Origin: a virus
Length of the DNA: 64,000 nucleotides
Strand: one strand, 5' to 3'
Virus record (IMG/VR): IMGVR_UViG_3300004463_001172
Location: 1 to 64,000 of that record
Of this stretch, positions 1 to 48,551 are shown piece after piece. Both the position numbers and the translations under genes were made by a program. Below the pieces are notes generated by a model. The model was given only the letters and a program-made list of their open reading frames with translations. It made no database searches and had not been told where the DNA came from. Numbering within the stretch: the first letter of the stretch is position 1; each line of letters starts with the position of its first letter.

Positions 1-570
1 ATGGCATATCAATCCCAGAAATACCGACTTACCGGCGTGGCACCCATGATCCTTCACAATGGGCAAACACGCGACCCACTCAACGTATTTTCCAAAGCCT
101 TGAAGAAGGTCTCCGGCAAGCGCAACAAGACCGACGCTGACTACGAAGAGATGGCAAAGATTGAATTTTTTGCGTCGGTCTATCTCTCTGATGGGAAAGT
201 CTGTCTGCCTGGAGAAAACCTGGAGCGTATGCTCCTTGATGCCGCTCGTAAGATGAAGCTTGGAAAACAGGTTCAGGCTGGTGTGTTTTGTCCTGGAGTT
301 GCATTTATCGAGTATGATGGTCCTCAGACGGTTGAGGATCTGTGGGAAGATGAGCGGTTTCGCTTTACACATGCTGTGAAAGTGAATGGTTCTGCGATCA
401 TGCGAACCCGTGCTCGGTTTGATCAGTGGTCTTTTGTGATGGAGGTCCGATATGACCCGGAGATGATTGACCTTGGGCAACTGCACCAGATTATGACCAT
501 TGCTGCTGATGCGATTGGGTGTGGGGAGTGGCGACCGAAGTTTGGGCGCTTCGAGGTTCAACCGCTGTAA
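1..570 (+). CDS. Stand-alone Cas7/RAMP-like RNA-binding protein (189 aa)
   Basis: RAMP-like motifs: beta1 YRLTGVAPMILHN, LPGENLERMLLDAA (cf. the iPgssikG.lr motif of RAMPs), C-terminal Gly-rich loop IGCGEWRPKFGRFEV; no other cas genes in the window. Confidence 0.8.
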   Translation: MAYQSQKYRLTGVAPMILHNGQTRDPLNVFSKALKKVSGKRNKTDADYEEMAKIEFFASVYLSDGKVCLPGENLERMLLDAARKMKLGKQVQAGVFCPGVAFIEYDGPQTVEDLWEDERFRFTHAVKVNGSAIMRTRARFDQWSFVMEVRYDPEMIDLGQLHQIMTIAADAIGCGEWRPKFGRFEVQPL

Positions 571-686
571 CAGGGCTTGGCATGGCACGGATCGCCTGGG
601 CAGGGATCGGAGCGGCGCGGACTGGCTTAGCGGTGACCGGCACGGCCTGACTCGACGCGACAGGGATTGGCTTGGCATGGGTTTTT
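571..686 (+). ncRNA. Pentamer-periodic array 1 (22 units of GGM-NN), putative guide RNA
   Basis: Triplets in exact 5-nt phase from 574 to 679: 10 GGC, 5 GGA, 1 GGG, 3 GAC, 3 other; ends GGCATGGGTTTTT. The repeat is certain, the RNA role is inferred. Confidence 0.8.
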
Positions 687-711
687 CTTGCCGTCTTAAT
701 TGATTAATATT

Positions 712-813
712 TAACATGGCGTGGCATGGATAAGAAGTGACTGGACCGGCAAGGCATCCAAGGGCATGGCAGTGAACGGCATTGCATGGCACGTCACGGA
801 ATGGCATGGGTTT
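712..813 (+). ncRNA. Pentamer-periodic array 2 (19 units of GGM-NN), putative guide RNA
   Basis: Triplets in 5-nt phase from 718 to 808, 13 of 19 start with GG; starts TAACAT-GGC and ends GGCATGGGTTT like array 1. Confidence 0.8.
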
Positions 814-814
814 C

Positions 815-958
815 CTACCGTAAGAGAAGTAGCACTAGTGCAATAATCACGAGCAATCCAAGTAATCCACTGGGGCCATACCCATATTTATGTAGGCCCC
901 AGTGAGGGGCAGACCCAAACATGAGTAGTATTAAGATGATTAAGGCGACGAGTAACAT
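815..958 (-). CDS. Small membrane protein, DUF3309-like (47 aa)
   Basis: MLLVALIILILLMFGSAPHWGLHKYGYGPSGLLGLLVIIALVLLLLR; GGAGA RBS before ATG 958. Confidence 0.75.
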   Translation of the reverse strand: MLLVALIILILLMFGSAPHWGLHKYGYGPSGLLGLLVIIALVLLLLR

Positions 959-966
959 CGTGTCTC

Positions 967-1140
967 CTACGCTATTGTCTCTCGTTTGGCGTCGACTTGC
1001 TCTTCTAGCGCTTGCTGAGACGCGCCCCGCAGCCCCTTCCAATTGATCTCTGCGCCTCGGCCTTCGCGAATGGCCTCAAGCACCCATGGCGCATTGGCTT
1101 GTACTAGCGCTAGTAATTGGATAATGAGTTGGATTTCCAC
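967..1140 (-). CDS. Hypothetical protein (~57 aa), overlaps the lipoprotein gene
   Basis: GTG start after GGAGG; amphipathic VEIQLIIQLLALV. Confidence 0.5.
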   Translation of the reverse strand: MEIQLIIQLLALVQANAPWVLEAIREGRGAEINWKGLRGASQQALEEQVDAKRETIA

Positions 1141-1466
1141 GGTGGTCCCTCCACCTGCTCGGCAATGGTCATCAGGATACAGAGTTGGCGCTGCATGATG
1201 AGCGCCTGCGATAGGTCTGATTTCCCGGCTTCTGCTGCCGTCAGATAGGCATCCTGACTCTGCGCCCATCGCGCATAGGCCTTCCGTGCGATGTCCAAGT
1301 TTTCCGGCGGGAGTGTGCCCTGTTGCGCCGCGCCATAGATCGTGCGATAGAGGTGCTCGGCGGTCGTTTTACTCATCTGCGCATACTCCTGCCGCGCCTG
1401 CGGCCCTGAAGCCGCACAACCAATCACGAGGCCTACACTGAGGAGGATGAGTGCCATCCGTTTCAT
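1110..1466 (-). CDS. Lipoprotein (possible spanin-like lysis component)
   Basis: Signal peptide with lipobox LVIG-C. Confidence 0.6.
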   Translation of the reverse strand: MKRMALILLSVGLVIGCAASGPQARQEYAQMSKTTAEHLYRTIYGAAQQGTLPPENLDIARKAYARWAQSQDAYLTAAEAGKSDLSQALIMQRQLCILMTIAEQVEGPPWKSNSLSNY

Positions 1467-1475
1467 AGAGAATCC

Positions 1476-1751
1476 CTAGTCCTCGCTGGCATCCAGTAAC
1501 GGGTTGGGTCCATGCTCCATGGGTGGCAAGGGCTGCGCCATCTGAGGAGCAGGATCACGGTCTGGGATCTGGCGGGGTTCGACCCGCGCATGTCCTTTAG
1601 CCTGGCCTTCGCGATAGGCGGCTTCTGTGCGCGACTCCTCGAAGATGGCTGCCCAGACCTCATCGCTGATGTCGAGGTACTCGACGCTCTCCCCGTACTT
1701 CGTCACCAGGTAGCAGCCATCGTCTGGACACATGGGGCCTCTCCCTTTCAC
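1476..1751 (-). CDS. Hypothetical protein
   Basis: ORF packed in the operon, overlapping the upstream stop. Confidence 0.45.
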   Translation of the reverse strand: MKGRGPMCPDDGCYLVTKYGESVEYLDISDEVWAAIFEESRTEAAYREGQAKGHARVEPRQIPDRDPAPQMAQPLPPMEHGPNPLLDASED

Positions 1752-2479
1752 TGAATTTTCATGATTAACACCACAATTCCACCTATCACCCCGACCGCAG
1801 AGATAATGCCGAACATCAGGGCAATCATGGCCCCCTGGCCGATGGTTCGCCCTTCGCCGCGATCCCCTCGGGTGCGCTCGCCAGTGATTTGTGGGAGCAA
1901 TTCCGCGCGCAGCGCCGCAATCGCGGCTTCCGACCGGAGGGCCACGGAATTAATGGCAGCTTCCAATCGGTCTTTCAAATCGGTGATTTTGCTATCTAAG
2001 GACTGACTGACCGTATGCCCCTGAAGCCCGAGCTGGTCGATTTGCTTGGCAAACGCCACCTCGGATTTTTCCACCGCTTCTTTGGCGGAACTGAGGGCCG
2101 CTGCCGTAGAGCGCATCTGCGCGGCGAGGGCGGTATCCAGGGCCGTTTTGGCGTCGTTGGACCCTTGCTCAAAGCGCTTATCGCGTTCGAGGAGCCGACC
2201 TTCCACGCTGTGAAACTTTTCCAGATACACCGCCGCCAGTGCCGCGAGCTTTTGATCGATCTCCGAGGGCAACCGCTCGGCTTGGCGTTGCAGCAGCTCC
2301 GTGGCTTTCTCCGTGCCATCCAGCTGCATGCTGATCTTGGCATCGAGTGCCTTGATCTGGCCCTCCAAGATTTCACGCAGGCCGGCAATTTCCCGCTGCA
2401 GCGACAGGGTGGTCAGCCGTGTCGGATCGGGCCGCGGGGTCCACTCCCCGTCGCGGTCTTCTGGCTGTTCCTCGCTCAT
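1748..2479 (-). CDS. Coiled-coil protein with C-terminal transmembrane anchor
   Basis: Heptad-rich body; C-terminal MIALMFGIISAVGVIGGIVVLIMK. Confidence 0.7.
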   Translation of the reverse strand: MSEEQPEDRDGEWTPRPDPTRLTTLSLQREIAGLREILEGQIKALDAKISMQLDGTEKATELLQRQAERLPSEIDQKLAALAAVYLEKFHSVEGRLLERDKRFEQGSNDAKTALDTALAAQMRSTAAALSSAKEAVEKSEVAFAKQIDQLGLQGHTVSQSLDSKITDLKDRLEAAINSVALRSEAAIAALRAELLPQITGERTRGDRGEGRTIGQGAMIALMFGIISAVGVIGGIVVLIMKIQ

Positions 2480-2823
2480 TCGGATGCGTCCTCATGGCCA
2501 GCGGTGATATGCTCACGGAAGATCCGCCAGCATTGCCAGCTACAGCCGAGGAGGCCCCAACCCCCGATATTGGTCAGCATAATGCGGGCGGGCACACTCA
2601 AGAGCACCTGGACCAGCAGGGAACTCTCGGCGGTGAGGCCACTGAGCACCAGGGCATTCCGCAGAAAGAGGATACCAATACTGACGTTCGTCAGCATGAG
2701 GCCGATCCAGGCCAGCCGCCAGTTGCGATACCGGCCGGCCGGCACGTACAACAGCCGGAGCGCAAAGAAGAGACTGCCGAGCATCCACAGGACTGGCCCC
2801 CAGGCCATGAGGATCCACATCAT
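2476..2823 (-). CDS. Multi-pass membrane protein (holin-like candidate)
   Basis: About 3 hydrophobic segments; ATGA-coupled to its neighbours. Confidence 0.55.
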   Translation of the reverse strand: MMWILMAWGPVLWMLGSLFFALRLLYVPAGRYRNWRLAWIGLMLTNVSIGILFLRNALVLSGLTAESSLLVQVLLSVPARIMLTNIGGWGLLGCSWQCWRIFREHITAGHEDASE

Positions 2824-3338
2824 GGGTGCGTCCGTCCACAGAGGATTGCCCACCAGCGTCTCCACCACGGCTCGTCGACAACGGACGTGGTCTCCTGTTC
2901 GCGTTCCTGGCGTTGACGGCGCCGGACATGTCGACGGCCATCCAGCATGGCTAAATACAGCGTGGCCGCGAGGGCTTCAGAGAAGTCTTCGCGCCGCGAC
3001 CCGCGTTTGGCCCGTTCGTAAATGGCCCGAATGCCAGCCGTCAGTTCGACTAATTCGGCATCAGTGAGGCTGTCCGGATCCCGCCGATATTTCTCGATAT
3101 GGGCGTCGAGCCCCTCGGCATCGGTATCTTGATGAAACATGTCGGCCAGCCGCTTATCCATCACGGTCAGCAATGGATTGAGCCGGAGCTTGAGGAGTTC
3201 CACCTCATTCTTGAGCGCACTAAAGGCTTGCTGGCTGTCTTTCGTGCGGCCCTGCAGCCGCACCATTTCGGTGCGGATGGCGACGTAGAGGGCGACACTG
3301 ACGCCGAGCGGCGCGACATACCGGAGCCACTCATCCAT
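2820..3338 (-). CDS. Membrane-anchored hypothetical protein
   Basis: N-terminal TM segment followed by coiled coil. Confidence 0.6.
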   Translation of the reverse strand: MDEWLRYVAPLGVSVALYVAIRTEMVRLQGRTKDSQQAFSALKNEVELLKLRLNPLLTVMDKRLADMFHQDTDAEGLDAHIEKYRRDPDSLTDAELVELTAGIRAIYERAKRGSRREDFSEALAATLYLAMLDGRRHVRRRQRQEREQETTSVVDEPWWRRWWAILCGRTHP

Positions 3339-3762
3339 CCGTCCCCTCCAGCGGCTGTCCGGCTTGCGCCAGGCGGACTTCGAGACTCCACAGAGTCAAC
3401 AAGCGTGGGAAGGTGAGATCGGGGCGTTCATCACCGGCCAGTTGCAATTCGGTGCTGCGCTCGCGAATCAGGCGGTGTAACGTCTTGGCGTCCTCCAGGC
3501 TAATCACGTCGTCGGCCAGTTCTTGTAACAACCGGTCGAGATCATGATGCGTCGGCGCATGGAGCCGCCCGGCCAGACTATGTTCGATGACCCGCGAGAA
3601 TATGCGGATTTGATGTTCCAGTTGTTCGACTCGTGGGCCTATCTGCTGCTGTGCCTGGCGCGTGGGTGGACACCCACGCGCCAGGGTGAGGGTCATGGCC
3701 ACGGCACTCACCAGCAACGCGGCTAGTGCAATCAGTAGCCCAGGGATGTCCCACGGCATCAT
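3331..3762 (-). CDS. Membrane-anchored hypothetical protein (similar layout to 2820-3338)
   Basis: N-terminal TM segment; LAGRLHAPTHHDLDRLL resembles LADMFHQDTDAEGLDAHI. Confidence 0.6.
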   Translation of the reverse strand: MMPWDIPGLLIALAALLVSAVAMTLTLARGCPPTRQAQQQIGPRVEQLEHQIRIFSRVIEHSLAGRLHAPTHHDLDRLLQELADDVISLEDAKTLHRLIRERSTELQLAGDERPDLTFPRLLTLWSLEVRLAQAGQPLEGTDG

Positions 3763-3837
3763 GATCGTTTGATTCCCTCTACGCTTATTGCACCCTCTAC
3801 CTGCGTGTGCCCTTGTCGTGCCATGCGGCTTAATGCC

Positions 3838-6800
3838 TTAGTATCCACCCGGCAGTGTGGCATCGACTACGCCTAACCTGTTGGCAAAGCCTACGCAGGA
3901 ATTGGCGGGTGTGTCATTCAGGCCGGCCACGATCGCGCCGCAACCCCGGAAATATCGCTGAAAACTGGTGCCAGAATAGCCGCTGGGTGGTGTGGTGACC
4001 CACAGTTTCGTGGTGGTCAAGACGCCGTTCTGATACGCGAATATAATCTCTGCGCCCGTGGTGAGCCCGGTCCAGACGGTCTTCGCGCCAATCGACGGAT
4101 TGGTGGTCACGACGTTGGTACAGTTGCCACACACGCCCCCCATGGCAGAGCTATAGTTGGTGCCATTACCGAAGATGCGCAAGCCATCTAAGCTCCAGAC
4201 ATCAGCGGTGATGCCGAGCGCCGTCCCAGGATTATTGACGAGGAGAATATCTTCGCCAAACCAACTAAAGAACGCCGAATCGGGCATCACCGAGGGTTTT
4301 TTGGTGTATAAGGCGGTTTTCCCTAAACCGGCCCCAATGATAGTACTCCGCCGCACCAGCGTATTTTCGTTGGCTGAATATTGCAGGCCCGCTGCCCCGC
4401 CGGGGGTGGTTGAGAGTCCTACCACGAGCATATGGTCGATGGTATTATCTAGCGGTCGAGAGCCTGGATCACTTTCATTGGTGGGATTCGCAGGGTGAAT
4501 ACTCATACCAATCAAGGTGTCATAGGCGATATTGCCTAACCAATGGTTATCGTGGCAATGTTTCCCGCTCGTGCGGGTATAGGAGGCACAGCTAAACCCG
4601 GTCGCATTGGTTGGATTCGCCCAGATATGATCCGCGATATTGTTTTCTACGATCCAATTCGCGGCGGGATAGAGCGCATAGGCGGTGTGGCCAACTCCAC
4701 TGGCGCAGTTATCTTCTTTTCCAGAGGAGCTACGATCATGGGCGTAATTCCGCCGCATGATCCCTCCGCTGTTGTATTTCACCACTGGATGGTCGCGTAA
4801 GCTGCCGTAAAACTCATTCTCTTCAATCAGCGCGTTGTCGCTATTATCCCGAATGGCCAACGGCGCACTGGTGCAATCAGAATCGCCCGGCACGGCGAGA
4901 AAAATATTGCGGCGCACCGTCGTATTTGGAGAGTATTTAATGTCTGTGTTGTATCCGGTGGTGCCAATGATATCATCATCGCCACTGAGCGATGTGCGGG
5001 CCCAGACAATGCCCTCAATTTTCCAGTTCGAGCAATTCCAGAGCTTCAGCGCGTTTTTCCCAACACCCGTTGCATTGACCCGTGCTGCCCGCTCGTTCTT
5101 GGCTTTAAGGACAACGGGCTGTGCGGCCGTGCCATTCGTATAGCCTGTCGTACAGTCGATGTTGGGTAAGCCGGTGGTGGCGTCGGTATAGACACCATCC
5201 GCGAGTTGCACCGTATAGCCTTTGAGCGCCTTCTTCAGCGTATAGGCAAAGGTCTTACAGGGGGTGCCTTCCGTTTGACAGTTATTGGCCGAGCCATCCG
5301 ATCCGCTGGGGCTCATATAGAGGGTTGTCCCCGCCGCAGGGGTACTGGTGGCCTGTGCAGCGGAGGCACTGTCGCCACTGAGCCCGGCTTGATCGATGCC
5401 CCGCATGCGCACGTTATAGGTGGTCGCTGGGGTGAGGCCACTCAAGCCGATGTTACACACGCCGCCGGTCGCGACCGTCACGCTGCTACAGGACACCCCA
5501 GACGCCCCGCAGACAAACGCCGCGCCCACGGTGCCTGTGCTATAGCCCGCTTGGCACTGACAGGGCGGTGAGCCGGTTTCGGTGCAGGTGGAGGAGGCCG
5601 AGAACCCACCCGTGGTGATGTTGGTAAAGCTCACGGTCCCCATGACTGGCGCAGTGGTATCGGCTGGGGTCGACATGATGGTGGAGGAAATCTTCGCAAT
5701 GCCAGCATTGGCGATGCTGAGGCTGGCACCTCGAAAATACTGATAGGTGGCTGAACTCCCAGTGACTTGCTCCTGAATCAGCCCGTTAAAGAGGATATAG
5801 GTATCGGGGACTAAGGTTTCTGTGGGCTCAATAAAGCCTTCAATGACCAGGTTATTGGCGCTGTAAATCGCCGTGCAGCGCCCGCTCCCAGCGAAGTCGT
5901 AGGCTTTATCCGACACGCCACTCGGATAATTGGCATCCCAGACAAACCCCCCATTATCACAACTGAATTTGTAGGTGCTGGCGTCGAGCACTTTATTCAA
6001 ATTTACGAAGCGGAACAACATCTCCACCCGATTGCCCACGAGCGAGCCATCATCGCCGGTGTTCGTGGTGGGCGCTAAACTGGCGAGCGTGACGCCGGTT
6101 TTAAAGTAAATCCGATTCGTACTATCCTTCCAGGCCATGCGCGTGACCCATATGCCCGTGGGTGGCACCGCGCTGGTGTTGCCCGTCATGGCGATAGCGT
6201 TGGCCTGAGTCCAATAGGCATCTGAGATGCCATCGGCATTGGGACTGTTGGCGCCAAACTCTTTGACGAGATAATCTTCGGTGATGCCCCCGCCGCCAGA
6301 GGGACACTGTGGGACGGCGGTGGATGAGGTGTGGAAGAACAAGCAATCGATGCGTAGCCCGGCTTTCGCGACCAAATGGAGTTGATCGCCGGTGGCGACG
6401 ACAAATGCCGTCTGCGGTGTGCCATTGAGCCCGTTTTTGGCATTCTCCAGCGTGCCAGCCCGCCCCAAGGGGAGCCAAGTCCAGCCACTGGTGGGCAGCC
6501 CCGAGTTGAGCGTGTTTAACTCGCGGTTATCGGGGGGATTTTTAAAGGGGGTCGTGCCAATCGTGGTCCACAGGCCGGCCGCGCTACTGGTGGGAATATC
6601 GACTAAGGCCCAGCCGTAGTAGGTGCCGGCGGTGAGCCCCGCTTGCGCGATCTCGCCAGCAAAGGGATTGCCGCCAATGGCAATGCGGACAAAGGCGGAG
6701 CCATTCGCCGTAGTGTCGGTGACTTGTTCCCACTCCCCACTCCTGAGCAGATTTTCGGCTTGGGCGGCAAAGCCTCCACCGGCGGCGGCAAAGGCGGGTC

Positions 6801-45325: not shown

Positions 45326-46435
45326 TTAGACAAAGTTCACGTGGGCCGGCGCCGGGTGAATAGCGTCAACAATCGCCCGATTCTTTTGATTGAACTGGCA
45401 GACCTGACAACTCGTGGCCTTGAAGTCGCCATAGGCGGCGTGTTTTTGCTCGGAATGAAACCAGTCGATGAAGCGCTGGTGCGTAAGGTCGCCGACTTCG
45501 CCATGCTTGGTATAGGCGGTTGAGCAGCACCTATAAATTCGTAAATCTCCACCGATATACATATTGAATTGCTGATACCCGCAGAACTCGTAATCGGGGG
45601 CATGTTGCTGGAGGTCGCGAATCCGGTCGCCAAACATATTCACGAGACGAAAGGTATCATCCTGCAGTGTCATGGCCTTCTCAATCGCTTCGCCAATCAC
45701 GGCAATCATCTCGCCATAGTACGCATCTCCCGCCTGGCTAAACATGGCCGAGAGCCGCACATTATGCGCGCCAGCGTCCTTCATCTGCCGTACTCCGTCG
45801 CACAACTCAGCCCAGTTTTCCAGCGTAATCACGTACCCACAGCCCAGGAGACAGGGACTGTGCGCCAAGTCAATTTGGGTTCGGATCGCCATCACATGGC
45901 GCAAGGCCGTGCTAAAGTATCGTGGGTTGACCTGGCGGATGGCGGCATAGGTCTCGGGGCTTCCCGCATCAATCGAGACGCGAATCCACGCCATTGCGGC
46001 ATAGACCGATTCCCAACCTGGTCGTAAGACCACCCCATTGGTCACAAGCGCTGTTTCCATCCCTAACCGCTGTGCGTTGGTAAAGAGGTGTAAGTGGTCC
46101 GGATGGACGGTCGGCTCCCCACCACCCGTAAATTGGATCGCCTTGACACCCAGTGTGGCGCAATCCTGAAGAATTTCGAGGGCCTTAACCGTCGGAATCA
46201 TCCGGTTCGGATTGACATTGAGCTGGCCATGTTCATAGACGCCAAACTGTTCCGAGGATAGGCCATCTGGACGCCTGTACGCACAGAAACGGCAGCTTTG
46301 CTGGCAAAAATCGCTCAAAATTATTTGACATTGCGTCGGAATGATTTGTTGTCCTTGACGTAATTCAGCAATCTTCTCTATATGCCATAACGCTTTCTCG
46401 CTTGAATAGGCTTGATCGGATCGAGAAATACTCAT
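45326..46435 (-). CDS. Radical SAM protein with SPASM/twitch domain
   Basis: CQQSCRFC, FTGGGEP, C-terminal C..CC..CQVC. Confidence 0.9.
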   Translation of the reverse strand: MSISRSDQAYSSEKALWHIEKIAELRQGQQIIPTQCQIILSDFCQQSCRFCAYRRPDGLSSEQFGVYEHGQLNVNPNRMIPTVKALEILQDCATLGVKAIQFTGGGEPTVHPDHLHLFTNAQRLGMETALVTNGVVLRPGWESVYAAMAWIRVSIDAGSPETYAAIRQVNPRYFSTALRHVMAIRTQIDLAHSPCLLGCGYVITLENWAELCDGVRQMKDAGAHNVRLSAMFSQAGDAYYGEMIAVIGEAIEKAMTLQDDTFRLVNMFGDRIRDLQQHAPDYEFCGYQQFNMYIGGDLRIYRCCSTAYTKHGEVGDLTHQRFIDWFHSEQKHAAYGDFKATSCQVCQFNQKNRAIVDAIHPAPAHVNFV

Positions 46436-46448
46436 CTATCCCTCAAAG

Positions 46449-46518
46449 AGGCTAGTCAAGCGGAGCGGTGCTTAGCTGAGTCAAGCCAAGTCGAGCAAAG
46501 CCCAGCATAGCAAAGGAT
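46449..46518 (+). repeat. Orphan pentamer-periodic array (14 units of AGY-NN)
   Basis: 13 of 14 in-phase triplets start with AG (8 AGC, 3 AGT, 2 AGG, 1 TGC). Confidence 0.8.
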
Positions 46519-46521
46519 ATT

Positions 46522-46560
46522 ACGTATAGGCTGGCAATCGGTATTTGCTAGCCTATACGT
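46522..46560. terminator. 16-bp hairpin directly after the orphan array
   Basis: ACGTATAGGCTGGCAA-7nt-TTGCTAGCCTATACGT (one G.U pair on the + strand). Confidence 0.65.
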
Positions 46561-46561
46561 T

Positions 46562-47143
46562 TCATGTCCTAGTCCAAATAGCATAAAAAGCACCAAACGG
46601 CTCTACCTTTCGCCCATGGTCATCGGTATCATGATATTTTTCACAGCAAAGACATACCCACTTATCACCATTAAAATCATTTGGCTCCCAGCCACTTAGA
46701 TGATTTTGCCAGTGACCTCCGCCCATACCCCACGCATCTGGACGACCATCATAATTCTGTTCATGAAACCCTAATGGTGTAAACACACAAATTTGTTGTC
46801 GTGCCAGGCGTTCGGCTTCACGGAGTAACCGTCGACCCTCGGGTTTCTCTAAATGCTCAATCACATCACCTGCCACGACCGTATCCACCGACTGATCGGG
46901 AAAGATCCGCATCACCTGATCCCATGTTCCATGTAACAACACATGATGTGGGACATCGGGGCAGGCCTCGCGCAGCCGAGCAATATACGGCGCATACGGC
47001 TCAATGCCGATATGGAGTTGACAGCGCACCAGCTGCTGGGGGCGAATGCCAATGCCCACATCAAGCACTACTGGCGCTGGCCGCAACTGCGCTTGCGCCG
47101 CATCTACCAATGCATCTGCCGAATACCAGGTTATGGCCGACAT
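46562..47143 (-). CDS. Class I SAM-dependent methyltransferase
   Basis: VLDVGIG, DTVVAGDVIEHL. Confidence 0.85.
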   Translation of the reverse strand: MSAITWYSADALVDAAQAQLRPAPVVLDVGIGIRPQQLVRCQLHIGIEPYAPYIARLREACPDVPHHVLLHGTWDQVMRIFPDQSVDTVVAGDVIEHLEKPEGRRLLREAERLARQQICVFTPLGFHEQNYDGRPDAWGMGGGHWQNHLSGWEPNDFNGDKWVCLCCEKYHDTDDHGRKVEPFGAFYAIWTRT

Positions 47144-47730
47144 CTACCTTTCTCTAGATCCACCAGGCACACATGCATCGGGCGGTCCTGCCGTGCGCCG
47201 AGGCGTGAGGTGAGCCCGGTTAGCAACGGCTCTTTGCGTTCACAGGTGGCCCCGAGCCAATCTTCTAAGACCGGAATACTGACCGATGGCCCATACAGCC
47301 GCTCGACATCACACGTGATCATCAGTCGGCCGCCCGGTTCGACTTGCGCCCACAGATGGTTCAACACGGTCGGATGCCATGCGGGTGGAATCTCTTCCAG
47401 GTAACTAATGGCGAGTACCATCGCAAAGGCTTGGTGAAAGGGCTGACGGATGTCATGCTGACGAAAGTTGGGCATCACTGAAAAGGTTGGCGTGGCCTGA
47501 CTATCGCTATGCAGCACTTGCGGTACGAGAGCTTCGATGGCCTCAGCAAAGGGGCGCTGAAAGGCTTCAAAGCCACACCCGGTATTATGGAGGCTGTGAG
47601 GCTTCACCGCTTCAATGACCGCGAGTGCGTAGGGCCACTCATAGGCCCGTGACCAATCCTGCCACTGTGGGTCAAAGAGGTCATCTGAGCGAAGTAATCG
47701 AAAGGCGTGAATCATGGCATCAGTCGGCAT
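47131..47730 (-). CDS. Methyltransferase-like protein
   Basis: SRAYEWPY, NTGCG, VLAISYLEEI, VEPGGRLMITCD. Confidence 0.7.
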   Translation of the reverse strand: MPTDAMIHAFRLLRSDDLFDPQWQDWSRAYEWPYALAVIEAVKPHSLHNTGCGFEAFQRPFAEAIEALVPQVLHSDSQATPTFSVMPNFRQHDIRQPFHQAFAMVLAISYLEEIPPAWHPTVLNHLWAQVEPGGRLMITCDVERLYGPSVSIPVLEDWLGATCERKEPLLTGLTSRLGARQDRPMHVCLVDLEKGRCRP

Positions 47731-48551
47731 TAATCTTCATAGCTCCCCAGCGGTAATTGGCCCCAGCTCTGGTGGTTGCGTACTACATCTTCCGGACGGC
47801 CGTCATAGGTCGCCCCCGCATGGGGCCATGTGCCCGATTTCGTCCAGAGTGGACAGGGACATCCGCGATAACACAGCGGATCGTGTTGGTCGTGGTATTG
47901 ATGGGCTCCCCAGATATCAGGCGCATTGATGGCATAGACACCTTGGGTCTGTAATCTGACCCACGCATCCTCGTCCTCTGGCCAGGGCTCCGTGTAGCTT
48001 TCATCATATCCGCCAATCTCTAGCAGGCGCTGTTTGTGAATCGCAGCGAGCATCGGCACATGCCAGTAGCTGGAATGATGAAAGGGCGAGACAAATAACT
48101 CCTCAATCCGCGAAAAATCCTGCGTCCAGGGAATATGATCCAGGAGCGCTTCCGTCATTGGTGAATGCACCCGGTAGCAATTGGCGAAGATATACGCCTG
48201 CACGTCTGCATCCGCGAGATAACTGGCAAACAGTTCCAAGGCATTCGGCGCGGCCATGACATCAGCCCCCTGAAAGACGAGGATTTCCGCCTGGGCTCGC
48301 TGAATCCCCACGTTCCAGGCTAATGCTGGGTTGCAGTAATAGGGTCGATGGAGATAGATATAGCGCAGCGGGAAGGCATCTGACTTTCGGGCCTCATCCA
48401 CCACACGCTTGGTGTCATCGGTCGAGCCGTCATCGATCACGATGGCCTCAAAACGGCTGTGTGCGTAGGTCTGCACGCTCAGTGACAAGAGATTCCGTCG
48501 TAGGTGCGCCGCCCGATTAAAGCTTGGAATAATGACGGAAAAGTCCGGCAT
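47730..48551 (-). CDS. GT2 glycosyltransferase
   Basis: FSVIIPSFNR, VIDDGSTD, IGGYDE..EDEDAW. Confidence 0.9.
   Translation of the reverse strand: MPDFSVIIPSFNRAAHLRRNLLSLSVQTYAHSRFEAIVIDDGSTDDTKRVVDEARKSDAFPLRYIYLHRPYYCNPALAWNVGIQRAQAEILVFQGADVMAAPNALELFASYLADADVQAYIFANCYRVHSPMTEALLDHIPWTQDFSRIEELFVSPFHHSSYWHVPMLAAIHKQRLLEIGGYDESYTEPWPEDEDAWVRLQTQGVYAINAPDIWGAHQYHDQHDPLCYRGCPCPLWTKSGTWPHAGATYDGRPEDVVRNHQSWGQLPLGSYED

What the first reader, a model, noticed from the sequence alone, without database searches (positions are those of the whole stretch)
574..810. Decoded dinucleotide strings as candidate gapped target sequences
Array 1 NN: TT AT AC TC TG AG TC GC GC CT TT GG CC AC CT TC GC AG TT TT AT. 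Array 2 NN: GT AT TA AG CT CC AA AT AG AT AG AC AT AT AC AC AT AT. If one target base is skipped per unit (NNx), the guide could ignore codon wobble positions. The reverse complement of array 1 read that way is compatible with a stop-free peptide such as (M/I)KKLAERVGPKRAAELQEVIK, which is suggestive only. Array 2 is AT-rich and more promoter-like. I found no match in this window by eye, and that search was not exhaustive.
Basis: inference. Interest (0 to 1): 0.7.

Follow-up and report, generated by a model that had tools for sequence, protein, structure and literature searches.

The report
Phage VIPR guide-RNA arrays (known system)

Summary
Window 574-678 holds 21 GGH/NN pentamers and 718-807 holds 18. 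This is the strongest period-5 signal in the 109-kb provirus.

The gene just upstream (1-570) folds as a Cas7-like RAMP. It matches PDB chain 36pp_D, 'SUSP1 Vipr protein', at E 1e-48.

Across 190 loci that encode relatives of this protein, 139 carry such arrays: 334 on the gene's strand and 2 on the other. GG is conserved and NN is free.

2026 preprints describe this system as VIPR. Vipr protomers bind each GGY, and the NN dinucleotides pair with double-stranded DNA while skipping one base per unit, usually the wobble base.

I found no target for arrays 1 and 2. I searched the provirus itself, 0.93 Mb of related loci, and IMG/VR with one exact sub-pattern per array.

A third array lies at genome 66,556-66,635, outside the window. 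At one-base skip it decodes in frame to the most conserved helix of rival vipr genes: 27/32 matched, 0 of 200 shuffles reached this, and the provirus's own vipr scores 18/32.

Verdict: a new member of a known kind, probably from an HNH-linked clade. The record starts at the vipr ATG, so any accessory gene is unseen.

The parts
1..570 (+). vipr gene: 189-aa single-domain RAMP (Cas7-like), the protein that binds the repeat RNA
   Evidence: It matches phrog_4652 at E 2e-46 and has no Pfam, NCBIfam or PADLOC hit. The AF2 model has pLDDT 95.2. The best Foldseek PDB hits are type VII Cas7, Csm3 and Cmr4, with 56 hits at E<=1e-3. A profile of 54 homologs hits PDB 36pp_D 'SUSP1 Vipr protein' at E 9.7e-49; the single sequence gives E 3e-25. 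The residues that hold GG in SUSP1 Vipr (H17, R138, D177, W178, R179, K33) align to H19, R137, E176, W177, R178, K35.
574..678 (+). vrRNA 1 repeat tract: 21 pentamers GGH/NN. NN = TT AT AC TC TG AG TC GC GC CT TT GG CC AC CT TC GC AG TT TT AT
   Evidence: It starts 4 nt after the vipr stop codon, as in most relatives.
679..717 (+). 3' tail of vrRNA 1 and spacer: GGG, a T run, then an AT-rich stretch holding the 12-nt palindrome at 696-707
   Evidence: The same GGG-TTTT end closes array 1 of relative L090 and the third array of this genome. No conserved fold was shown. Whether this stretch holds a processing site, terminator or promoter is not known; the sigma-70 and terminator scan found nothing here.
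718..807 (+). vrRNA 2 repeat tract: 18 pentamers, 12 with GG. NN = GT AT TA AG CT CC AA AT AG AT AG AC AT AT AC AC AT AT. One further NN (AT) may precede the first GG.
   Evidence: It aligns unit for unit with the second arrays of L090 and L089.
808..830 (+). 3' end of vrRNA 2 (GGGTTTCC...), running into the 3' end of a convergent DUF3309 gene (815-1042, minus strand)
   Evidence: The extent of the tail is not determined.

Best explanation
Window 1-830 is a VIPR (Viral Interference Programmable Repeat) locus: a vipr gene followed by two guide RNAs (vrRNAs). By homology with the SUSP1 system, one Vipr protomer binds each pentamer. Two neighbouring protomers flip out and hold the GGH bases, leaving the two variable bases exposed. 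The resulting helical filament reads double-stranded DNA by pairing each NN with two target bases and skipping one target base per unit. In coding targets that skipped base is usually the wobble base. Binding silences the target; in clades with a nuclease partner it may lead to cutting. The targets are expected to be competing phages, satellites or prophages. Shown here: the protein homology, the conservation of the GG-binding residues, the strand-specific association of arrays with the gene, conserved GG with free NN, the absence of self-targets, and an in-frame gap-1 match of this genome's third array to rival vipr genes. Inferred from the literature and not tested on this locus: transcription, RNP assembly, DNA binding, silencing.
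For: Protein. The AF2 model (pLDDT 95.2) is most like Cas7-family RAMPs. A profile of homologs hits the solved SUSP1 Vipr at E 9.7e-49. H19, R137, E176, W177, R178 and K35 align with the SUSP1 residues that bind G1, G2, Y3 and the target backbone.

Association. GG-period-5 arrays are present in 6 of 6 annotated phage loci, 64 of 80 IMG/VR loci (191 arrays on the vipr strand, 0 on the other), 51 of 80 metagenome loci (113 against 1) and 24 of 30 bacterial-genome loci (30 against 1).

Logo. Over 2,759 units the frequencies are G .94, G .93, C/T/A .55/.26/.16, then 0.04 and 0.01 bits at positions 4 and 5.

Divergence. Against L090 and L089, whose Vipr is 70% and 68% identical, the arrays keep positions 1-2 at 68-86% identity but positions 4-5 at only 21-43%. 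In 22 close array pairs, substitutions fall at positions 3-5 and almost never at positions 1-2.

Skip rule. Across 262 arrays searched against 1.04 Mb, matches of at least 80% of NN positions occur only at gap 1: 5 real against 1 shuffled, with 0/0 at gap 0 and 0/0 at gap 2. No self-target: the best gap-1 scores on the provirus itself are 25/42 and 22/36, equal to shuffles, as the paper reports for its own systems.

Third array (genome 66,556-66,635, minus strand). At gap 1 it scores 27/32 on a vipr gene (L126), in frame; 0 of 200 order shuffles reach 27 (maximum 23). All top-30 per-locus best hits fall on the same vipr codons, and the provirus's own vipr scores 18/32.

Literature. VIPR definition, 1-nt skip rule, assays and natural targets; filament structure; vipr-targeting solo vrRNAs.
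Against: No natural target was found for array 1 or array 2. Both arrays are more degenerate than the published consensus: 6 of 21 and 6 of 18 units lack GG, and 5 + 4 units read GGA, whereas the SUSP1 pocket excludes purines. They are also longer than the published 9-16 units. No accessory (vap) gene is visible because the record starts at the vipr ATG. No RNA data exist for this element. The published tail structure (a pseudoknot in the SUSP1 clade) has no evident counterpart here. The GG columns of my logo are inflated because the detector selects on GG. The excess of >=80% matches at gap 1 is small (5 against 1) because my search space was mostly VIPR loci.
Confidence: 0.9

Rival explanations
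1. The arrays are decaying or decoy vrRNAs. They are still recognisable but no longer guide this provirus's Vipr to a real target, or they serve only to soak up Vipr from this or a rival element.
For: About a third of the units lack GG. No target was found. The literature describes satellite-borne vrRNAs that redirect a phage's VIPR to decoy sites (abstract).
Against: Internal degeneracy is described as frequent in functional vrRNAs. GG positions remain far better conserved than NN between this locus and L090/L089, which indicates continuing selection. My target search space was very small compared with the one used in the paper.
Confidence: 0.07
2. The repeats act as DNA, not RNA: binding sites for a phage protein (packaging, partition or operator arrays), or structure-forming G-rich DNA.
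For: The array sits at the very edge of the provirus record, and an AT-rich palindrome lies between the arrays.
Against: There is a total strand bias with respect to the neighbouring gene: 334 arrays against 2 over 894 kb. The adjacent protein is an RNA-binding RAMP. Some relatives have tRNA-like or hairpin punctuation between arrays. Published small-RNA sequencing and cryo-EM of homologous systems show RNA.
Confidence: 0.01
3. A TRAP-like or sponge RNA: a periodic RNA that merely titrates an RNA-binding protein or forms two-tier G-quadruplexes, with NN as meaningless spacers.
For: This was my own first working idea. The 5-nt spacing of a trinucleotide motif resembles TRAP sites (recalled, not tested), and NN carries no information at population level.
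Against: The third array's NN string decodes in frame to a conserved protein segment only at gap 1. The published reprogramming experiments show that NN sets specificity.
Confidence: 0.02

Closest known systems
VIPR type II of Escherichia phage SUSP1 and the Pseudomonas fulva prophage (bioRxiv 10.64898/2026.04.26.720920 and 10.64898/2026.04.26.720927)
   Same: The Vipr protein is homologous (E 1e-48 to the solved chain) and keeps the GG-binding residues. Tandem GGY/NN pentamers lie on the vipr strand in the flanking intergenic DNA. GG is conserved and NN is hypervariable. There is no self-target.
   Different: Protein identity is only about 31%. There is no winged-helix vap1 gene after vipr; that gene is present in the Felixounavirus, Pseudomonas, Gordonia and Mycobacterium phage loci. 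The arrays have 21 and 18 units rather than 9-16. A is tolerated at position 3, and the pocket residues differ (M72 to N, C173 to I). The tail is a short GGG-U-run with no evident pseudoknot.
Nuclease-associated VIPR types (III-V in the same paper)
   Same: An HNH endonuclease gene (PF01844) lies directly upstream of vipr and overlaps its start in 104 of 196 related loci, including the two closest relatives L089 and L090. Many bacterial-genome loci carry a single vrRNA right after vipr, an architecture the paper mentions.
   Different: The HNH gene cannot be seen here because the record begins at the vipr ATG. I could not assign a type, because types are defined in a figure and data files that I could not read. 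The paper places types III and V mainly in defence islands, whereas this copy is at the edge of a predicted provirus.
Solo vrRNAs that target rival vipr genes (bioRxiv 10.64898/2026.10.15.759431, section 8)
   Same: This genome's third array stands alone 66 kb from vipr, matches rival vipr genes at one-base skip, and matches its own vipr poorly.
   Different: The phage here still has its own vipr. The array is linked to a 51-aa ribbon-helix-helix gene and lies between head genes. The setting is a rhizosphere provirus, not an enterobacterial phage. The site targeted is the conserved helix at codons ~50-65, not the first or last codons.
Class 1 CRISPR Cas7 backbone (Csm3, Cmr4, type VII Cas7)
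   Same: The fold is the same (Foldseek E 2e-5 to 7e-4, TM 0.45-0.56). One protomer binds per RNA period, and a thumb breaks the guide-target duplex.
   Different: The period is 5 nt with sequence-specific GGY capture, not 6 nt with sequence-independent binding. There is no repeat-spacer array and no conserved cas neighbours. The guide is noncontiguous.

Membership tests
VIPR system | A small (~20 kDa) single-RRM RAMP protein homologous to Vipr | tested here: met
   189 aa. Profile hit to PDB 36pp_D 'SUSP1 Vipr protein' at E 9.7e-49 over residues 4-188; single sequence E 3e-25; Cas7-like fold at pLDDT 95.
VIPR system | Residues that capture G1, G2 and Y3 and contact the target backbone (SUSP1 H17, D177, R138, W178, R179, K33) | tested here: met
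   They align to H19, E176 (D to E), R137, W177, R178 and K35. These columns are invariant or nearly so in 54 homologs. The Y3-pocket residues differ (M72 to N73, C173 to I172).
VIPR system | Tandem GGY/NN (YNNGG) pentamer tracts flanking vipr on its strand | tested here: met
   Window 574-678 and 718-807. In relatives, 334 arrays lie on the vipr strand against 2 on the other. Deviations: 21 and 18 units against the published 9-16; GGA units; a third of units lack GG.
VIPR system | Conserved GGY with hypervariable NN | tested here: met
   Logo. Per-phase identity to L090 and L089. Per-phase substitutions in close pairs.
VIPR system | An invariable, structured 3' tail after the repeat tract | tested here: inconclusive
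   A GGG + U-run end is shared by vrRNA 1, the third array and L090 array 1. MFE folds are weak and dissimilar. No covariation analysis was done.
VIPR system | An accessory vap gene next to vipr (most types) | not testable with these tools
   The record starts at the vipr ATG and no gene follows vipr before the arrays. Relatives carry HNH upstream in 104 of 196 loci. A metagenome contig reaches 110 nt beyond position 1, but its letters were not available to me.
VIPR system | Expression of ~100-nt vrRNAs that co-purify with Vipr | not testable with these tools
   No RNA run holds the stretch.
VIPR system | A natural target with >=80% NN match under the 1-nt skip rule, gapless | tested here: inconclusive
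   For arrays 1 and 2 the best scores are 64% and 69% in 0.75 Mb of related loci and 60-61% in the provirus itself, with 0 exact hits in IMG/VR for one 11-unit sub-pattern each. The third array of the same genome scores 27/32 = 84% on a vipr gene, with 0 of 200 shuffles reaching this.
VIPR system | No self-target on the source contig | tested here: met
   Gap-1 best on the 109-kb record is 25/42, 22/36 and 19/30 for the three arrays, all within shuffles.
CRISPR-Cas (type III/VII Cas7) | A repeat-spacer CRISPR array and further cas genes beside the RAMP | tested here: not met
   Only period-5 repeats are found in window 1-6000. Rfam finds nothing. Clustering of all ORFs (86 loci) plus a tblastn scan of 196 loci found only the HNH and winged-helix genes recurring beside vipr. 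The rest of the window was not scanned for CRISPR arrays.

The most novel reading that the evidence does not exclude
HNH-linked VIPR cassettes may behave as RNA-guided homing or allele-exclusion elements. In the closest relative, L089, the whole cassette (RHH - vrRNA - HNH - vipr - two vrRNAs) is inserted between homologs of two genes that are adjacent in this provirus (47131-47730 and 47730-48551). Its second vrRNA matches, in frame, the 3' end of this provirus's copy of the flanking gene 40-90 nt from that junction: 26/34, with the best 11-unit block at 19/22 and 0 of 300 shuffles reaching it. It matches L089's own copy less well (23/34). A guide plus nuclease aimed at the cassette-free allele beside its own insertion site would spread the cassette the way a homing endonuclease does.
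Probability: 0.08. Interest if true: 0.8.

Novelty: new member of a known kind. Interest (0 to 1): 0.4.

Why it matters
VIPR is a newly described RNA-guided DNA-recognition system, proposed to predate CRISPR. This locus adds a member from a rhizosphere provirus whose Vipr is only about 31% identical to the characterised SUSP1 Vipr. It shows longer guides and tolerates A at the third repeat position. In the same genome, a separate guide appears aimed at the most conserved helix of rival Vipr genes, while the provirus's own gene is diverged at that site. That suggests VIPR-against-VIPR conflict also occurs outside enterobacterial phages. For the scan itself, it shows that a reader working from raw sequence alone reached the published decoding rule.

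Tried and rejected
1. Rfam, on window 1-3000 and on six phage loci: nothing relevant. ARAGORN: no tRNA in the window stretch.

2. Close-relative scans with the single protein found nothing in IMG/VR or metagenomes. Alignment-based scans worked.

3. Working ideas dropped once the PDB hit and the papers were found: a TRAP-like ring, a G-quadruplex, a CsrA-type sponge, and a pac or iteron DNA site.

4. Target search for arrays 1 and 2.
   - The provirus itself at gaps 0-3: equal to shuffles.
   - 0.75 Mb of related loci: array 1 is equal to shuffles. Array 2 at gap 1 scores 25/36, above 40 shuffles (maximum 24) but under the 80% criterion.
   - IMG/VR with one exact 11-unit NNx pattern per array: 0 hits each. 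Exact matching is far less sensitive than the paper's >=80% criterion.

5. Host identification: the nearest genomic Vipr relatives are <=49% identical (Alphaproteobacteria, Cyanobacteria), so no host pangenome could be chosen.

6. Sequencing runs: no RNA holder is listed. Five DNA rhizosphere metagenome runs hold parts of the stretch. Contigs laid from four of them show no differences and none spans the arrays except in the best holder, which may be the source sample.

7. A systematic test for vrRNAs resembling their own flanks gave only a slight excess: mean best match 0.578 against 0.569 for shuffles, Wilcoxon p 0.02, with no clustering next to the cassettes.

8. The 46.4-kb AGY/NN array has no target above shuffles on either reading.

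9. Literature searches with 'pentanucleotide repeat', 'Cas7-like', 'Cas7 homolog' or 'Felixounavirus' terms did not surface the VIPR papers. The name came from the PDB hit and then.

Full report
**Observation**

Read in five-base register, window 574-678 is 21 units of GGC/GGA + NN, with variants GCC, AGC, TGA and GAC, followed by GGG and a T run. Window 718-807 is 18 such units, followed by GGGTTTCC.

Period-5 autocorrelation reaches its genome-wide maximum here: 0.56 against a mean of 0.255, sd 0.051. Only two other places stand out, at 46428-46540 and 66540-66642. The window is the first 64 kb of a 109,136-bp IMG/VR provirus record, so there is no sequence upstream of position 1.

**The neighbouring gene**

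ORF 1-570 ends 4 nt before array 1. It matches only phrog_4652, of unknown function. An AlphaFold model built on 54 homologs is confident (pLDDT 95.2). It is most like Cas7-family RAMPs: type VII Cas7, Csm3 and Cmr4, with 56 hits at E<=1e-3.

A profile of the homologs hits one solved chain strongly: 36pp_D, 'SUSP1 Vipr protein', E 9.7e-49. The single sequence gives E 3e-25.

**Association of protein and arrays**

tblastn finds the protein in 130 phage records, from Felixounavirus, Gordonia, Mycobacterium and Pseudomonas phages, at 31-41% identity. All six loci I opened carry period-5 arrays next to it.

I then used a detector that requires GG in at least 8 of 10 successive pentamers. The results were:

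| Collection | Loci with arrays | Arrays on vipr strand | Arrays on other strand |
|---|---|---|---|
| IMG/VR | 64 of 80 | 191 | 0 |
| Metagenome contigs (many short) | 51 of 80 | 113 | 1 |
| Bacterial genomes | 24 of 30 | 30 | 1 |

The modal array length is 16 units, with a tail up to 60. On both strands of the 109-kb record itself, the detector fires only at array 1 and at 66.5 kb.

Some of the 16 IMG/VR loci without a call have weaker arrays (L066, L068, L069, L072). Others (L034, L058, the L075-L081 group) showed none in the DNA held.

**What is conserved**

Over 2,759 units the logo is G .94, G .93, then C .55 / T .26 / A .16, then 0.04 and 0.01 bits at positions 4 and 5. The GG columns are inflated because the detector selects on GG.

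The two closest loci, L090 and L089, have Vipr 70% and 68% identical and also carry two arrays after vipr. Aligned to the window, positions 1-2 stay 68-86% identical, and positions 4-5 only 21-43%. Among close array pairs (16 pairs at 85-95% identity and 6 at 95-99.9%), substitutions fall at positions 3-5 and almost never at positions 1-2.

**Identification**

The PDB name led to three 2026 preprints.

- bioRxiv 10.64898/2026.04.26.720920. I read the abstract, all Results, the Discussion, Methods sections 18, 20, 26 and 27, and passages. It defines VIPR systems as a Vipr RAMP plus vrRNAs of 9-16 YNNGG repeats with a 3' tail. The NN dinucleotides recognise dsDNA with one skipped base per unit. 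Skipped bases fall mostly on wobble positions. No PAM is needed and either strand can be targeted. The rule was verified by competition binding, GFP silencing and reprogramming. Natural targets are satellites, prophages and other VIPR systems. There are seven types with vap1-6 accessory genes.
- bioRxiv 10.64898/2026.04.26.720927. I read the abstract and sections 5-6. It gives the filament structure and the residues that hold G1, G2 and Y3. In the window's protein these align to H19, E176, R137, W177 and R178, and the backbone contact aligns to K35. The Y3-pocket residues differ, which may explain the GGA units seen in this clade (inference).
- bioRxiv 10.64898/2026.10.15.759431. I read the abstract and section 8. 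It describes solo vrRNAs, some aimed at rival vipr genes.

A fourth preprint, 10.64898/2026.10.21.760802 (passages only), recovers VIPR arrays by 5-nt entropy periodicity and reports non-canonical trinucleotides.

Gap sizes 0-3 on both strands of the 109-kb record give best scores equal to 100 order shuffles for both arrays; for example, at gap 1 the scores are 25/42 and 22/36. This is expected, since the paper also finds no self-targets.

- Against 0.75 Mb of related loci, array 1 is at shuffle level. Array 2 at gap 1 reaches 25/36, just above 40 shuffles but below the 80% criterion.
- One exact 11-unit NNx pattern per array found nothing in IMG/VR. That is a much blunter search than the paper's.
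- As a family-wide check, I searched 262 arrays against 1.04 Mb. Matches of >=80% occurred only at gap 1: 5 real against 1 shuffled, with 0/0 at gap 0 and 0/0 at gap 2. Gap 3 was not run for this set.

**A third guide**

At genome 66,556-66,635, on the minus strand and outside the window (L008 2556-2635), 16 GGT/GGC + NN units follow a 51-aa ribbon-helix-helix gene (PF01402, 23.3 bits). The array lies between head genes and ends in the same GGG-TTTT motif.

At one-base skip its NN string reads, in frame, E-[LF]-A-R-[LF]-E-[WC]-Y-G-G-[IM]-Y-... This is the conserved helix of Vipr proteins, around codons 50-65.

- The best score is 27/32 on L126, and 0 of 200 order shuffles reach it (maximum 23) in 932 kb.
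- With the 15-unit reading, the score is 25/30, with 0 of 300 shuffles reaching it. All top-30 per-locus best hits lie at the same vipr codons.
- The provirus's own vipr reads MAKIEFFASVY at that site and scores 18/32.

This mirrors the published vipr-targeting solo vrRNAs. It is a prediction from sequence only.

**Accessory gene**

In the Felixounavirus, Pseudomonas, Gordonia and Mycobacterium phage loci, a 146-188-aa protein follows vipr. This fits the published winged-helix vap1; I did not test the fold.

In the window's own clade the recurrent neighbour is instead an HNH endonuclease gene directly upstream, overlapping the vipr start. It gives a tblastn hit in 104 of 196 loci and a PF01844 hit for L090. 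L089 and L090 read RHH - (vrRNA) - HNH - vipr - vrRNA - vrRNA.

The window's record begins at the vipr ATG, so this cannot be checked here. A short frame-2 reading runs to a TGA at window 47-49, as the end of an overlapping upstream gene would (read; inference). The paper says nuclease-bearing types (III-V) probably destroy rather than silence targets. I could not assign a type, because types are defined in a figure and data files I could not see.

**Verdict**

The locus is a new member of a known kind. The open points are:

- the targets of arrays 1 and 2;
- the accessory gene;
- the tail structure;
- expression.

Noticed in passing
Outside the window: genome 66,556-66,635 minus strand (L008 2556-2635); RHH gene at L008 2631-2786 (-): A third, solo vrRNA (16 units) linked to a 51-aa ribbon-helix-helix gene lies between portal-like and head-morphogenesis-like genes. 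At one-base skip it decodes to the conserved helix of rival vipr genes (27/32; own vipr 18/32).
   Followed up: yes
window 46454-46518 (+), hairpin to ~46560: Thirteen pentamers read AGY/NN on the plus strand (RCT/NN on the minus strand). They are followed by a 16-bp hairpin, in the gap between a radical-SAM-like gene and a methyltransferase-like gene that both lie on the minus strand. This is possibly a non-canonical vrRNA-like array. No target above shuffles and no Vipr-like gene beside it was noticed.
   Followed up: partly
window 47770-47819 (-), inside ORF 47730-48551: The second vrRNA of the closest relative, L089, matches this site in frame at one-base skip (26/34; best block 19/22, 0 of 300 shuffles reach it) and matches L089's own copy less well (23/34). 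In L089 the whole VIPR cassette is inserted between homologs of window genes 47131-47730 and 47730-48551.
   Followed up: partly
L003 2741-2800, 2866-2935, 4326-4400; L004 3689-3745; L019 3667-3720, 3809-3860; also L002, L028, L036, L163: In actinophage and some metagenomic VIPR loci, 12 arrays in 7 of 166 loci are followed by a tRNA-like minihelix: an acceptor-like stem plus a T-arm with a GTTCGAnTC loop. ARAGORN and Rfam did not call them tRNA in L002-L004, the loci among these that were scanned. The word tRNA does not occur in the main VIPR preprint text. They may be tails or processing signals.
   Followed up: partly
L004 3582-4385 (Gordonia phage Trine gene 40): The annotated CDS runs over two vrRNA arrays and tRNA-like elements at its 5' end. 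The similarity to the accessory proteins of the other phages probably lies in its 3' part only (not mapped), so the annotated start is probably too far upstream.
   Followed up: no
L025 3623-3922 and 3964-4213; L026 likewise: There are very long uninterrupted arrays of 50-60 units, far beyond the 9-16 units of single vrRNAs. They may be the 'staggered' arrays the paper mentions.
   Followed up: no
window 815-1042 (-): A DUF3309 small membrane protein gene (PF11752, E 4e-10) converges on the end of vrRNA 2. The reverse-complement NNx reading of array 2 is hydrophobic and loosely resembles its transmembrane segment, but array 2's best score anywhere in the provirus is only 22/36.
   Followed up: partly
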